This document shows positions 27,001 through 33,000 of a stretch of 64,000 bases of DNA, piece by piece; positions within the stretch are counted from its first letter, which is position 1, and every line of letters starts with the position of its first letter. The DNA is taken from the NCBI GenBank assembly GCA_963727485.1, contig CAVSGM010000003.1, positions 32,001 through 96,000 on the forward strand, in the 5' to 3' direction. The position numbers are program-made. The DNA comes from an uncultured delta proteobacterium (GTDB lineage Bacteria > Myxococcota > Myxococcia > SLRQ01).

Positions 27001-30000
27001 CGAAGAGGCCGCGAATGGGGTCGGTCATGGGCGCAAGGTGCTACCAGCGGGCCGAGGGGTGGGCAAGCCCGGCGAAGCACATGTCACGACGCGCCGCGTT
27101 GAGGTGCCGGGGCGCGCCCCTCGGGGCTACCACTCGAAAGCCATGCGCTTCGTCTACCTCCTCGACTCGGATCACGCCCTGGAGGACGTCACCGAGCGGG
27201 TGTGGTCGGTGGCCTCCGCCCTGGTGACCCCGCTGCTCCGCCGGTAGGATGGGGGCCCGTGCCCGGGCCCTCCGACAGCGGCGACCTCGAGCGCCTCATC
27301 GCCGAGCGCGAGGACATCGAGCGCCGGCTCCGGGAGCACCACGCCCGGCGCCTGGGGATCCTCTTCAGCGACATCGTCGGCTCCACCGAGATCTTCGAGC
27401 GCCAGGGGGACATCGCCGGCCTCGCCCTGGTGCGCCGGCACAACGCCCTCCTCTTCCCGGTGGTCGAGGGCCACCGGGGGCGGGTGGTCAAGACCATCGG
27501 CGACGCCATCCTGGCGGTCTTCGACGACCCGGCCGACGGGGTGCGCTGCGCGGTGGCGATGCAGCAGGCCCTGGCCCGGGCCCGCCAGACCGACCCCGCC
27601 GCGGCGCCGATCCACATCCGGGTGGGGGTCCACGCCGGCGAGGCGATGCTCGACGGCGGCGACGTCTTCGGCGACGCGGTGAACACCGCCGCCCGGGTGG
27701 TGGGGCAGGCCGGCGGCGACGAGGTGCTGGTGAGCCAGGCCCTCTTCGACGCCCTCCCGGCGGGCCACGGCCTCGACGGCCGGCCCCGGGGGGCGGTGGC
27801 CCTCAAGGGCAAGCGGGACCCGGTGCCCCTGGTGGCGGTGGCCTGGGACGGAGCACCGGCCGCGCCGCCGCCGGCGGACGCGCGCCTCGCCGCGCCGTCG
27901 GGGGACGCCGACGCGGACCGGCCGATCTTCGTCCTCGATCTCGGCCTCGGACCGAGGGGCCTGCGGGTCGCCGCGGTGGACGGCCCCGGGGACAAGGGCC
28001 CGGTGCGCGCCTACGCCGAGCCCGGCCTCGATCTCGCCGGCCTCGACGCCCTCGCCGGCCACTTCGCCGCCTACCTCGACGGCGACGCCGACGCCGGCAC
28101 CTACGCCGACGGCCTCGAGGCCGCCGGCCGCGAGCTCTTCGACACCGCCCTCTCCGACCGGGCCCGGCGCCACCTCCGGGAGACCGGCTGCCACTACCTG
28201 CGCCTCCACCTCGACGACGCCCTGGCCCACCTCCCCTGGGAGCTCGCCCACGACGGCACCGCCTGTCTTGGTGGGCGCTTCGCCGTGGGCCGGGTGGTGG
28301 AGACCCGCAGCGACGAGGGCGAGGGGAGCGTCATCGCCTACCGCCCCGGGACGGGCCACGCCCTGGTGGTCTCGGACCCCACCGGTGATCTCCCCGAGGC
28401 GCGGCGCGAGGGCGAGGCGGTGGCCGGCCTCTACCGCGAGGGCTTCGGCGGCGAGGTCCGCCACCTCGCCGGCCCGGTCACCCGCGAGGCGCTGCTGGCG
28501 GCGCTCCCCGGGTGCCGGATCCTCCACTTCGCCGGCCACGTGATCCGCGGCGGCGCCGACGCCGACGGGGGCTTCCAGCTCGCCGACGGCCTGCTCCCGG
28601 CCTCGGCCATCGCCCACGCCGTGGGCTCGGCGCCCCCGGAGCTGGTCTTCGCCAACGGCTGCCACGGCGGCGGCGACCGGGCCTTCACCGACGGCGCGCG
28701 CCGGGCCGGGAGCGTCGCCGCCTCGCTGCTCCTCGGTGGGGTGGGCCACTTCCTCGGGCCCCTGGGGCGGGTCCCCGACGCCGACGCCCTCGCCTTCGCC
28801 CTGCGCTTCCACGAGGTGATCCTCGCCGGCCAGCCCTACGGCGAGGCGGTGCGCCTGGCCCGGGAGGCGCTCCAGGCCAACCGGCGCCTCGCCTTCGCCC
28901 GCTACCTCTTCTATGGCGAGCCACGCAGCGCCCTCGAATCCGGCCCTGGCCCGGCGCCAGGTCGAGGCCACCCGGTCGTTCCCGCCCCGGGCGATCCCCG
29001 AGGCGGTCACCGGTGAGACCCGGCGGCGGTGGACCCGGTGGCAGCGCCGGCGACCCCGGCGACGCCCGCGACACGGGGGACGGGCGGCCGGATCGGGGTG
29101 GGCCTGGGGATCGTCGCGGTGGCGGCGGCGGGGGGGCTGTGGCTCACCCGGCACCTGGTCACCCGGAAGCCCGCCGCGCCGACCGCGCCCATGGCGAAGC
29201 AGGCCCTGCCCCCGGCCCGGGCGAGGCCGGCAGACCCCGCGCAGAAGGCCGCCCCGCGCACCGGCCCGGTGACCATCGCCGTCCTCCCCTTCAAGAACCT
29301 CACCGGCACTTCGGCCCTCCAGCCGCTCGCCGAGGGCCTCACCGAGTCGGTGATCACCGGCTTCGCCGGCGCCGAGGGCATCCACCTCGTGGAGCACGTG
29401 CAGATCGGCGCCGACGTCCACTACCAGGCGTGGACCCACTCCAAGTACGTCGACCCGGCGACCCGGGCGCGCATCGGGAAGATCGTCGGCTGCGAGGTGG
29501 TGGTCCTCGGGGGCTACCAGAAGGCCGGCCACGTCCTCCGGGCCACGGCGCGGCTGGTGCGGGTGGACACCGGGGAGATCCTGGCGGCGGTGGAGGTGGA
29601 GCGGCCCCAGGCGAAGGTCTTCGCCCTCCAGGACGCGGTGGCCAAGGCCCTGCGCGGGGACCTCCCGGCGGTGGAGAAGGTGCTGCGGCCGTGAGGCGCG
29701 CGGTCACCCCGGGCCTCGTCGCCGGGCTCATCGCTGTCGCCCTCGCCTTTGCGCCCCGGTCCGCCCGGGCGGGGAAGGCGGGGGCGTCTCCGGCCCGGTG
29801 GCGGTGCTCCCCTTCAAGAACCTCAACCAGGATCCCAAGCTCGACTGGCTGTCCGTGGGCATCGCCGAGACCATGGTCTCCGACGTGAAGAAGAGCGGCG
29901 GGGTGCAGGTGGTCGAGCGCGACCAAATCGACAAGGCGCTCGCCCAGATCGCGCTCCAGGGCGAGGTGAAGCTGGCGCCGGCCACCGCGGTGAAGGTGGG

Positions 30001-33000
30001 CAAGCTCGTCGGCGCCAGGACCATCGTCCTCGGCGCCTACCAGGAGGCGGGCAACACCGTGCGCATCACCGCGCGCTTCGTCTCGGTGGAGACCGGGGTG
30101 GTGAACGACGCCGCCAAGGTCACCGGGCCGCTCACCCGCATCTTCCACCTCCAGGACGCCATCGTGGCCCGGCTCCTGGGGCGTCCCCATGGACACCGCT
30201 ACCACGCGCCGAAGCGAGAGAAGGGCAGCGCCCGGACGGTGAAGGCCTACCGGCTCTACGCCATGAGCCTCTCCGTGGCCTCCGACGCCCAGCGGGTCAC
30301 CTACCTGAAGCAGGCGGTGAAGGTGGACCCGCACTTCCACTACGCGGCCGACGCCCTCGCGGCCCTGCAGCGGCGGATGCAGGGGTACGCCGCCGCCGAC
30401 CTCGCGGCCCGGAAGCAGGCCGCGGCCACCCTCCGGGCCCGCCTCGGGCGGCCCGGGCTCGATCCCAGGGTCCGGGCCCAGGAGGCCTTCCAGCTCCTCA
30501 CCGCGAGCCTCGGCAGCCGCCGCTACCACCAGTTGAGCCACGACGCCGGCATCGTGCTCAGCCTTCGCTGGAAGCCGCAGCCGGGGGGGGTGGACGTCCA
30601 GGAGTACGCCGGCTTCTGTCGCTTCGAGGCCCACTACTTCCTGGGGGACTACGACCTGGCGTTGCAGTACGGCGAGCACTTCCTCAAGGCCTACCCCGGC
30701 GGCACCTACTACGGCGCGGTGGAGGGCCTGATGAACCAGATGATCGCCGAGAAGCGCAAGGTCGAGGAGGGCAAGGTGGCGCTGCGGGACGAGTACGCCA
30801 AGCTGGAGAAGAAGCGGGCCGACGCGGTCGCCAAGGCCCGGCGGCAGCACCAGGCGCCCAACCGCTACCTGATCCGGGGGCTCGACCTCCAGCGGTGCGA
30901 CAAGGCCATGTCCCTCGACCAGTGGCGGACGGCCGTCCACGAGTGCCAGGCGTTCATCGCGGCCCATGGGCACGACAGCGACGAGGGCGCCGTGAGCCTG
31001 GCGAACGTCGCCAGCTACGACGTGATCCAGGCCTACGTCCACCTGGGGAGGTTCGACGACGCCCGGCGACTGGCCAAGAAGCTGATCAAGCGTGCGCCCA
31101 AGTGGTCGCGAACCACGGGCATCGCCACCCAGATGGCCTACTGGCCCCGGTGACCGCGGCGGCGTCACCTTGACCTCCCCGGGCCCGGGCCGCTACCGTC
31201 CCGCGCCCATGAAGGACCTCCAGGAGAAGATCGAAGCCGCCTACGCCGACAAGGCCCTCCTCGACGACCCCGAGTACGCCGAGGCGGTGCGGCAGGTCAT
31301 CGGCCACCTCGACCGGGGCGCGCTCCGGGTCGCCGAGAAGCAGGGCGACGCCTGGACGGTCAACGCCTGGGTGAAGGAGGCGATCCTCCTCTACTTCTCG
31401 CTCCAGCAGATGGAGACGGTGCAGGTCGGCGCCTACGAGTACCACGACAAGATCCCCCTGAAGACCGGGCTCGCCGAGCAGGGGGTGCGCCTGGTGCCCC
31501 CGGGGACCATCCGCTACGGGGCCCACTGCGAGCCCGGCGTCGTGGTCATGCCCGGCTACGTGAACATCGGCGCCTACGTCGCCACCGGGACCATGGTCGA
31601 CACCTGGGCCACCGTGGGCAGCTGCGCCCAGATCGGCAAGGGCGTGCACCTCTCCGGGGGCGTCGGGATCGGCGGGGTGCTCGAGCCGCCGGGGGCCTCG
31701 CCGGTGATCATCGAGGACGGGGCCTTCATCGGCTCGCGGTGCATCGTGGTCGAGGGCGTGGTCGTGGAAGCGGGCGCGGTGCTGGGCGCGGGGACGGTGC
31801 TCACCGCCTCCACGCCCATCATCGACGTGCGCGGCACCGAGGAGAAGGTGGTCAAGGGCCGGGTGCCGGCGCGGGCGGTGGTGGTGCCGGGGAGCCGGCC
31901 CAAGGCGTTCCCCGCGGGGACCTACCACATGCCCTGCGCCCTCATCATCGGCGAGCGCTCCGAGAAGACCGACAAGAAGACCTCGCTGAACGCGGTGCTC
32001 CGGGAGTTCGGCGTCGAGGCCTAGGCGGCGGCGCCGGGGTCCGATCGCGGGCGCGCGCGGGCCTCACTCGAGGTAGCGGTGCGCACCGGCGACGTCCCGG
32101 CCGGTGACGGTCAGCCGGCCGAGGACGATGGGCAGGGAGAAGCGCCTCGGCCCGCAGCTGCCGGGGTTGAAGTAGAGCACCCCGTCCTCGGTCTCCATCC
32201 GCGGCTGGTGCGAGTGGCCGCAGACCACCACGTCGACGCCCTCGGCCGCCGGGTCGATCTCCAGGGCCTTCACGTCGTGGATGAGGTAGAGGCGCACCTC
32301 GCCGACCTCCACCACCCGGGTGTCCGGGAGGCCTTCGGCCCAGGGCGATCCCACGTCGACGTTGCCCCGGATGGCGTGCACCGGGGCGATGGCGCCCAGG
32401 GCCTCGAGGACCTCGGGCCCGCCGACGTCACCGGCGTGGACGATGAGGTCGACGCCGGCCAGCGCCTCGAGGGCCTGGGGGCGGACCAGGCCGTGGGTGT
32501 CGGAGACCACGCCGACGGTGACGGTGGGGGGCTTCGTCATGGGGCGTGCCGATGATGCCAGGGTGGTGCACCCGATGCACGATCCCCGAGGCCCGGTCGC
32601 GATCCTTGGCGCGGCGAGGGAGGGGCTTCCCGGCGGCGGCCGGGGTGCGAGGTGGCCCCGGGCGAGGCACGCGTCTTGCGTTCTACCGGTGCCGGGAGGT
32701 GCGTCATGCGCCGGTATCTCGTCCCCGCCCTCGTGCTCGCCGCCGTCCTCATGGGGTGTGGCCCGGTGGTGGTCGCCACCGAGACCCGCACCCGCACCGT
32801 GGCCCCGGTCTGGAACTCGGCCCTGGTGGTGCGCACCGACAACGGCGCCATCGACCTCACCGCCAACCCCGGCGAGACCTCGGTGCGCATCCAGGCGACC
32901 CTGGCCTGCGGCGGCCGCAGCACCGCCGAGGCCCAGGACCGCCTCGCCCGCGCCACCCTCACCGCCGTCCGTGACGCGGTGAACACCCTCACCGTCGCCG

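What a model noticed while it worked through the whole genome (the two positions that open the first line are those of the whole stretch)
27259..31153. Membrane receptor joining an adenylyl cyclase and a caspase-like CHAT protease
g02826-27 encode a class III cyclase, a CHAT protease, a membrane helix and a CsgG/TolB-like outer domain (one ORF of about 800 aa in relatives, broken by indels here), followed by a TolB-like/TPR partner gene. It is likely a single-pass receptor in which an envelope cue drives both cAMP synthesis and caspase-like cleavage. A receptor that couples a second-messenger cyclase to a caspase-fold protease was not found in print.
Evidence so far: 42 homologs cover both domains at 44-83% identity, most 770-890 aa and many with PF03783. 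In 24 aligned proteins the cyclase residues (D37, D81, K77, D133, N140, R144) and the CHAT His (HFAGH) and Cys447 are invariant. The partner g02828 follows in 4 of 4 full-length loci. Search 73 found 0 papers.
(Added by a program. Inside this text positions count along the whole contig: contig position 32,001 is position 1 of the stretch shown here. "Call 12" and the like, gene names such as g00115 and contig names such as C1 are that model's own, and its searches are not shown. The text may have been shortened before it was handed on; [...] marks where a part breaks off. The agent that wrote the report below was given it as the finding of a first reader that could run no searches.)

Follow-up and report, generated by a model that had tools for sequence, protein, structure and literature searches.

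The report
Cyclase–protease receptor with exported partner
Two overlapping genes encode a predicted single-pass membrane receptor that joins a cAMP-making enzyme domain to a caspase-like protease domain, plus a likely exported partner protein; the receptor would send one outside cue into both cAMP and protein cutting, likely cutting itself off the membrane at a conserved arginine.

Summary
Confirmed. 27259-29694 is one gene: class III adenylyl cyclase, two-lobed CHAT protease, linker, membrane helix and a TolB-N/FlgO-like outer domain. All three frame breaks (two here, one in the partner) are absent from independent short-read contigs, so they are likely assembly errors. All catalytic residues are invariant in 36-38 aligned proteins. 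An exported TolB-N/TPR partner overlaps the stop codon. The gene is in 21 of 401 phylum genomes.

New here: a distant clade (mostly Desulfobacterota-labelled) has the same cyclase-CHAT head, often directly behind an ECF sigma and a soluble zinc-finger anti-sigma; cyclase-only versions lack that pair (0 of 6). The anti-sigma and the receptor's own CHAT-to-membrane linker share a conserved hydrophobic-Arg-Gly/Ser/Ala motif, a likely cut site. The window's clade has no such anti-sigma but keeps the linker motif (33 of 36), so self-cleavage is the best guess. The motif is not specific to cyclase-bearing members.

Not found in ten literature searches. The scan reported the same system before on another genome (e1-9534839). 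New variant of known kinds.

The parts
27259..29694 (+). Receptor gene (about 810 codons): cyclase - CHAT - linker - membrane helix - outer domain; two compensating indels in this assembly
27259..27345 (+). N-terminal helix before the cyclase, conserved (L..L...R); likely a dimerising helix (inferred)
27346..27816 (+). Class III adenylyl cyclase domain; D38, D82 (metal), K78, D135 (adenine), N142, R146 (transition state)
   Evidence: Z 25.4, rmsd 1.4 over 165 residues to Ma1120
27916..28926 (+). Two-lobed CHAT protease; dyad H427 (28537-28539) and C468 (28660-28662)
   Evidence: Z 25.2, rmsd 3.7 over 311 residues to separase 5fby; Z 23.6 to Csx29 8d9f
28937..29019 (+). Stretch read out of frame in this assembly; contains the false stop TGA 29014-29016
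28970..28978 (+). Thr-Arg-Ser linker motif at the family's fixed spacing after the CHAT end; candidate self-cleavage site (inferred)
29092..29148 (+). Predicted membrane helix, N-in
29257..29691 (+). Outer TolB-N/FlgO/CsgG-like alpha/beta domain
29691..31153 (+). Partner gene; start overlaps the receptor stop by 4 bases; one indel near 29779 in this assembly
29691..29771 (+). Partner signal-peptide-like stretch ending Ala-Arg-Ala
   Evidence: family 106 of 109
29798..30214 (+). Partner TolB-N/LpoB-like domain, homologous to the receptor's outer domain
   Evidence: Z 13.9, rmsd 2.2 over 117 residues to TolB
30398..31150 (+). Partner helical/TPR part with invariant Cys pair (C367, C383 of the 451-residue piece), likely a disulfide
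24941..27028 (-). Flank: glucan phosphorylase, divergent; not a conserved neighbour
31209..32024 (+). Flank: tetrahydrodipicolinate N-succinyltransferase (dapD-like); not a conserved neighbour

Best explanation
This is a predicted inner-membrane receptor whose cytoplasmic side carries an adenylyl cyclase domain and a caspase-like CHAT protease domain with intact active sites, and whose outer domain likely binds the exported partner encoded by the overlapping next gene; partner-driven clustering would switch on cAMP synthesis and the protease together, and the protease would likely cut after an arginine in its own linker and free the cyclase-protease head from the membrane. Shown: domain order, intact catalytic residues, gene coupling, the conserved Arg motif, and the sigma/anti-sigma context of distant relatives. 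Inferred: topology, partner binding, activation by dimerisation, Arg specificity and self-cleavage. In the distant clade the same protease likely also cuts the adjacent soluble anti-sigma at the same kind of site and releases an ECF sigma, giving two outputs (cAMP and transcription). The window's clade has no such anti-sigma, so the self-cut likely serves to end or relocate the cAMP signal. Odds: about 0.85 for a receptor with two active enzymes, about 0.5 for the self-cut being the main proteolytic event here.
For: Cyclase residues are invariant in all 36-37 aligned rows that have a residue; H423, H427, N466, C468 and E384 in 38 of 38. The dyad aligns to DdvA H862/C907. The best protease fold match is separase, listed as Arg-specific in PMC4357240. 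Helix 34 of 36, positive-inside 31 of 36. Partner export signs. 4-base stop/start overlap at 15 of 17 junctions printed. Partner follows in 16 of 21 loci. Linker motif 33 of 36 at offsets 14-22 against a shuffle mean of 2.6, max 8; 12 of 17 in distant cyclase-CHAT proteins against 3.7; 9 of 9 parsed in a later set against 1.3, plus 2 unparsed ones read by eye; 39 of 94 in CHAT relatives without an N-terminal cyclase hit against 16.3, max 30. The anti-sigma has Arg in the matching column in 25 of 27 rows and the motif at residues 131-154 in 9 of 11 later ones. Anti-sigma directly upstream: 13 of 21 and 6 of 11 distant cyclase-CHAT loci, 13 of 16 CHAT-only loci, 0 of 6 cyclase-only loci. Three loci with a broken dyad (L094, L095, L106) have no anti-sigma. 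The genome has 22 cNMP-binding matches. Class III cyclases work as dimers (established knowledge); several clan CD proteases are activated by dimerisation or filament formation.
Against: No activity, binding or expression data. Among 147 evenly sampled representatives the motif was in only 16 of 38 cyclase-bearing linkers (shuffle mean 8.5, max 18), so it is looser than the close clade suggests and is not tied to the cyclase. The pattern was chosen after seeing the close clade, and kin are not independent. Gly follows the catalytic His in only 3 of 38, unlike DdvA and Csx29. The invariant Glu384 is common to CHAT domains and does not prove Arg specificity; Csx29 cuts its substrate between residues 427 and 429. 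5 of 21 loci lack a following partner. The partner also sits behind headless receptors with neither enzyme (9 of 9 read), 6 of which still show a similar motif, so the motif may be a binding or modification site. L106 has a dead dyad yet matches the pattern. In DdvA the proposed self-cut was not seen on phage infection.
Confidence: 0.55

Rival explanations
1. The receptor is as described, but the protease's real target in this clade is a protein encoded elsewhere (another anti-sigma or a repressor); the linker motif only docks in the active site as an inhibitor or is incidental.
For: The subfamily's clearest substrate candidate is an anti-sigma in trans. G000 has several weak zinc-finger and ECF-sigma matches.
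Against: No orthologue of that anti-sigma: none in G000, and the listed matches in 48 genomes stop before profile position 140 of 239 (111 weaker matches were not listed). No third conserved neighbour in 21 close loci. An intact Arg suits a cut site better than a pseudo-substrate (inference).
Confidence: 0.22
2. An abortive anti-phage system: the exported partner senses a phage protein or envelope damage, and a released promiscuous Arg-specific protease kills or stalls the cell, as in type IV Thoeris or PCaspase.
For: Bacterial caspase-like proteases often act in defence. Patchy spread, 21 of 401 genomes. One relative has an N-terminal TIR domain (L271).
Against: The five family members form one supported clade (97), as vertical descent would give. 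Flanks are housekeeping genes. PADLOC gives only weak PycC similarity through the cyclase and nothing for the other parts. Distant relatives sit with a sigma pair, a FadL-like barrel and a lipoprotein.
Confidence: 0.12
3. Only the cyclase matters; the CHAT domain is a leftover scaffold after loss of the sigma pair.
For: No substrate gene nearby in this clade. His-Gly is not kept. Cyclase-only receptors with the same outer design exist.
Against: The dyad is invariant in 38 of 38 at roughly 45-60% identity, whereas dead dyads do arise elsewhere in the subfamily.
Confidence: 0.07

Closest known systems
Ma1120 (Mycobacterium avium) and Rv1900c/LipJ class III adenylyl cyclase domains (PDB 4wp8, 1ybu)
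   Same: Fold (Z 24-25, 36-38% identity) and all six canonical residues, adenine-type Lys/Asp.
   Different: Here fused to a CHAT protease, a membrane helix and an outer domain.
HetF of Anabaena (PMC8406250; passages read)
   Same: N-terminal CHAT (residues 1-555), one membrane segment and a TPR domain: a membrane-anchored CHAT protein acting outside defence.
   Different: No cyclase and no TolB-N-like pair; acts at the divisome.
DdvA/DdvS of Myxococcus xanthus (PMC11506125; passages and section 9 read)
   Same: Single-pass protein with a CHAT dyad and a proposed self-cut in the linker next to the membrane; tied to an ECF sigma.
   Different: DdvA's TPR-CHAT is periplasmic and the anti-sigma domain is fused; here the CHAT is predicted cytoplasmic, beside a cyclase.
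Type III-E Craspase Csx29-Csx30-CASP-sigma (PMC10028731; passages read)
   Same: A CHAT protease cuts a soluble anti-sigma to free an ECF-like sigma, the logic inferred for the distant clade; same two-lobed fold (Z 23.6).
   Different: Triggered by RNA bound to Cas7-11; soluble; no cyclase; the window's clade has no sigma pair.
SAVED-CHAT/PCaspase (bioRxiv 10.1101/2023.06.23.546230) and type IV Thoeris caspase (10.1101/2024.10.24.620036); passages read
   Same: Nucleotide signalling linked to caspase-like proteases; activation by oligomerisation; Arg-specific cutting.
   Different: There the nucleotide comes from a separate enzyme and activates the protease through a sensor site; here cyclase and protease are one membrane protein and no nucleotide-sensor domain was detected.
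Separase protease domain (PDB 5fby, 5fc3)
   Same: Best structural match of the protease part (Z 25.2 over 311 residues); Arg at P1 per PMC4357240.
   Different: Eukaryotic, 16-19% identity; a shared fold does not show specificity.

Membership tests
Class III adenylyl cyclase (PF00211) | Profile match and fold | tested here: met
   62.4 bits vs cut-off 21.9; Z 25.4 to Ma1120
Class III adenylyl cyclase (PF00211) | Two metal Asp, adenine Lys/Asp, transition-state Asn/Arg | tested here: met
   D38, D82, K78, D135, N142, R146 invariant; roles from established knowledge
Class III adenylyl cyclase (PF00211) | Makes cAMP | not testable with these tools
   needs assay
CHAT protease (PF12770, clan CD) | Profile match and two-lobed separase/Csx29 fold | tested here: met
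   83.8 bits vs 24; Z 23-25
CHAT protease (PF12770, clan CD) | His-Cys dyad | tested here: met
   H427/C468 align to DdvA H862/C907; 38 of 38; following Gly in only 3 of 38
CHAT protease (PF12770, clan CD) | Proteolytic activity and P1 preference | not testable with these tools
   Arg preference inferred from motifs only
Pycsar (PycC) | Pyrimidine cyclase with an adjacent effector gene | tested here: not met
   Only weak PycC scores (36 and 25 bits); adenine-type residues; no PADLOC hit for the outer half or the partner; the defining features are recalled
Craspase / CASP-sigma | Cas7-11 complex and Csx30 | tested here: not met
   none among conserved neighbours
CHAT - soluble anti-sigma - ECF sigma triad | Adjacent sigma and zinc-finger anti-sigma | tested here: not met
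   0 of 16 close-clade loci with at least 1.4 kb upstream; met in 19 of 32 distant cyclase-CHAT loci
DdvA-type anti-sigma | Fused zinc anti-sigma domain and periplasmic TPR-CHAT | tested here: not met
   N-terminus is a cyclase; CHAT precedes the helix
CsgG/FlgO/TolB-N/LpoB fold | Alpha/beta domain of this fold | tested here: met
   partner Z 13.9 to TolB; receptor FlgO above cut-off and homologous to the partner domain
CsgG proper (curli pore) | Outer-membrane pore-forming lipoprotein | tested here: inconclusive
   CsgG scores below cut-off for the window proteins; CsgG not among the rows listed
TIGR04510 peptide-modification cyclase | Curated cut-off of 400 bits | tested here: not met
   36 and 23 bits

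The most novel reading that the evidence does not exclude
A bacterial receptor with a built-in proteolytic timer: one envelope cue clusters it, the cyclase fires, and its own caspase-like domain clips the cyclase off the membrane at a conserved Arg. It descends from a five-gene trans-envelope system (FadL-like barrel, lipoprotein, receptor, soluble anti-sigma, ECF sigma) in which one polypeptide splits a signal into cAMP and sigma release through a shared Arg cleavage code.
Probability: 0.3. Interest if true: 0.85.

Novelty: new variant of a known kind. Interest (0 to 1): 0.72.

Why it matters
Membrane cyclase receptors and CHAT proteases are each known, but no receptor carrying both was found in the searched literature. 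If right, it adds a non-defence signalling role for bacterial caspase-like proteases and a direct link between second-messenger synthesis and regulated proteolysis. The shared Arg motif gives a named, cheap test for substrate and specificity in a large subfamily (3,199 representatives at E<=1e-30, not all of this type). Natural cyclase-only, protease-only and headless versions provide ready controls.

Tried and rejected
Rejected: a real split gene or stop-codon read-through (short-read contigs lack the extra bases). Rejected: my interim idea that the linker motif is specific to cyclase-bearing members; it held in small sets (12 of 17 vs 2 of 12 vs 0 of 5 cyclase-only) but failed in 147 representatives (16 of 38 vs 39 of 94; 15 had no helix within 130 residues and were dropped). 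Rejected: Pycsar. No orthologue of the distant anti-sigma was found in G000 or among the listed matches of 47 other genomes. No close CHAT of this subfamily was found in 5 headless-receptor genomes (best E 1e-24, partial). No relative in viral contigs (7 pattern matches, none confirmed). No RNA holder listed. No sigma-70-type promoter match. Complex prediction of partner with outer domain was not available, nor was the wide structural search. The Atlas search gave only unnamed or weak FlgO/TolB-N leads (best 0.90). The tree is a quick one and its deep branches are unresolved, so the order of gains and losses is not established. Literature: searches listed no paper on a cyclase-CHAT fusion. PMC3501461 has no 'cyclase' or 'CHAT'. 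PMC7826278 has no 'CHAT' in its main text; its supplements, not read, may describe the sigma group. PMC8999054 mentions CHAT genes near ECF54 without an anti-sigma.
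Full report
Observation. The stretch 27259-29013 encodes a class III cyclase (PF00211, residues 30-186) and a CHAT domain (PF12770, 288-543). 29029-29691 encodes a hydrophobic helix and a FlgO/CsgG-like domain, and 29798-31150 a second such domain followed by TPR-like helices. The first two pieces are in one frame, split by TGA 29014-29016. Relatives are single proteins of about 770-890 residues: 40 proteins other than the window's own carry both enzyme domains. I aligned 38 of the 42 top hits, leaving out four truncated ones.

The breaks. The family has a [T/V]-R-[S/A] motif 16-17 residues after the CHAT end. In the window this motif lies in another frame at 28970-28978, at the right spacing. 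Short-read contigs from other runs lack one base at 28937 (X4, X6) and two at 29019 (X5), and have one more at 29779 in the partner's N-terminus (X5). These contigs are of low depth and from near-identical strains, but each change restores the family frame. Other genes in the window also look frameshifted. The gene is therefore most likely intact in the organism.

Enzymes. D38, K78, D82, D135, N142 and R146 are invariant in all rows with a residue (36-37 of 38), and H423, H427, N466, C468 and E384 in 38 of 38. The second His and the Cys align to DdvA H862 and C907. The model of relative P0004 (mean pLDDT 80.9, pTM 0.58) matches Ma1120 (Z 25.4) and, for residues 215-555, separase (Z 25.2) and Csx29 (Z 23.6). 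One departure: Gly follows the catalytic His in only 3 of 38. This is the only CHAT domain in G000, beside 16 cyclase-like reading frames and 22 cNMP-binding matches.

Topology and partner. A helix of hydropathy 1.5 or more lies between CHAT and outer domain in 34 of 36 full-length relatives, and its N-side is more positive in 31 of 36. The partner has a signal-peptide-like lead in 106 of 109 (a crude hydropathy rule) and a Cys pair in 110 of 110. Its model (pLDDT 95.4) shows a TolB-N/LpoB-like domain (Z 13.9) and a helical TPR part. The partner follows the receptor in 16 of 21 close-clade loci (one with a gap of about 0.5 kb); it is 4.3 kb away on the other strand in L170, upstream in L004, and not in the fetched stretch of L239, L240 or L241. 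Start and stop overlap by 4 bases at 15 of 17 junctions printed. Binding itself is untested.

Spread. The cyclase-CHAT gene matched 21 of 401 genomes of the phylum, in 4 of 4 others of the family (the count includes G000 and the unpublished G199, and some matches are partial genes). Named close hits are labelled Myxococcales, Myxococcaceae or Deltaproteobacteria. The close clade is one supported group (99) and the family's five copies another (97) in a quick tree whose deep branches are open. The partner is wider (110 of 401 at E<=1e-30, many of them distant paralogues, also counting G199). In 9 of 9 loci read from genera g6, g21 and g39 it follows a headless receptor of helix plus outer domain only. 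The outer pair is thus a sensor module and the cyclase-CHAT head is one output.

Distant clade. Scans of genomes and metagenomes found the same head at about 30% identity, mostly in records labelled Desulfobacterota or Deltaproteobacteria, with TPR plus CsgG-like outer parts. The CHAT subfamily matched 20 of 301 genomes of that phylum. Unbiased clustering of neighbours gave an ECF sigma, a soluble zf-HC2 anti-sigma, a FadL-like barrel and a secreted TPR-Ig-CsgG-like protein. The anti-sigma lies directly upstream in 13 of 21 cyclase-CHAT loci (L081 dropped as a duplicate, L146 for lack of flank), 6 of 11 in a later set, 13 of 16 CHAT-only loci (L104 and L120 dropped for lack of flank), 0 of 6 cyclase-only loci and 0 of 16 close-clade loci with enough flank. 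The profile was built from 16 of these loci; the rest are independent of it, though kin. Three loci with a broken dyad have no anti-sigma. This ties the anti-sigma to the protease, not to the cyclase.

A shared motif. The anti-sigma has a hydrophobic-Arg-Gly/Ser motif between its two domains: Arg in 25 of 27 rows and the motif in 9 of 11 later ones. The receptor's own linker has the same kind of motif: 33 of 36 in the close clade (shuffle mean 2.6), 12 of 17 and 9 of 9 parsed in distant cyclase-CHAT sets. In 147 evenly sampled representatives it was in 16 of 38 cyclase-bearing linkers (shuffle mean 8.5, max 18) and 39 of 94 others (16.3, max 30), 15 being dropped for lack of a nearby helix. 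So it is a trait of the protease subfamily, weaker than the close clade suggests and not tied to the cyclase. Separase and several bacterial caspase-like enzymes cut after Arg. I infer a cut site; a binding or modification site is not excluded, and 6 of 9 headless receptors show a similar motif.

Mechanism. Most likely the exported partner, with or without a ligand, clusters the outer domains; the cyclase dimer forms and the CHAT is activated. The protease cuts the linker Arg and, in the distant clade, the anti-sigma. In the window's clade no orthologue of that anti-sigma was found, so the self-cut would free the head and end or relocate the cAMP signal. Rivals: another substrate in trans (0.22), abortive defence (0.12), a vestigial protease (0.07).

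Known systems and novelty. HetF gives the membrane-anchored CHAT topology (passages), DdvA the proposed linker self-cut (passages and section 9), Craspase the CHAT-anti-sigma-sigma logic (passages), and SAVED-CHAT and type IV Thoeris the link to nucleotide signals (passages). None has a fused cyclase. Ten searches (listings seen) showed no cyclase-CHAT receptor; the library lacks most subscription papers, and the ECF classification's supplements were not read. I recall, without a call, a 2025 report of CRISPR-independent CHAT/anti-sigma/ECF pathways; it may cover the sigma triad. This scan noted the same pair on another genome (e1-9534839) and sigma/anti-sigma/membrane-CHAT triads elsewhere (seen); these are not independent support. 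Verdict: real, conserved, a new variant of known kinds; interest 0.72.

Noticed in passing
L211, L220, L222-L227, L236: Headless receptors (about 240-290 residues: short tail, helix, same outer domain) overlap the same partner; in L211, L220, L223 and L224 a divergent two-component pair lies next door (LytS-type kinase and LytTR regulator confirmed for L224).
   Followed up: partly
L230:5284-6933 (-): A C14 caspase domain with an N-terminal hydrophobic stretch is fused to the same outer domain and followed by a partner paralogue: a second caspase-fold protease using the same module.
   Followed up: partly
L012, L084, L085, L086, L088, L266; L094, L095, L106: Cyclase domains keep the metal Asp and Asn/Arg but replace the adenine-selecting Lys and Asp; they may make another cyclic nucleotide.
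   Followed up: no
L273, L274, L271, L108, L123, L278, L091: The same CHAT subfamily occurs with other partners: kinase-cyclase-CHAT, TIR-CHAT, CHAT-kinase-DUF4384, CHASE2-CHAT, CHAT-AAA, and a doubled cyclase.
   Followed up: partly
L210, L217, L218, L219, L221, L228, L229, L234, L235, L170:1751-4507: Many genomes hold extra stand-alone or tandem copies of the partner, suggesting swappable sensors.
   Followed up: no
L239:5536-7137 (-): Receptor copy with an in-frame TAG at the CHAT end and no following partner; possibly decaying.
   Followed up: no
window 20977-23194, 32652-33525, 35369-36534: A Ser/Thr kinase and two other genes appear split across frames, in line with an indel-prone assembly.
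   Followed up: no
window 18990-21428 (-), 23223-24855 (-): A large exported protein with no Pfam hit at 1e-5 and Cys-rich repeat proteins with signal-like N-termini lie upstream.
   Followed up: no
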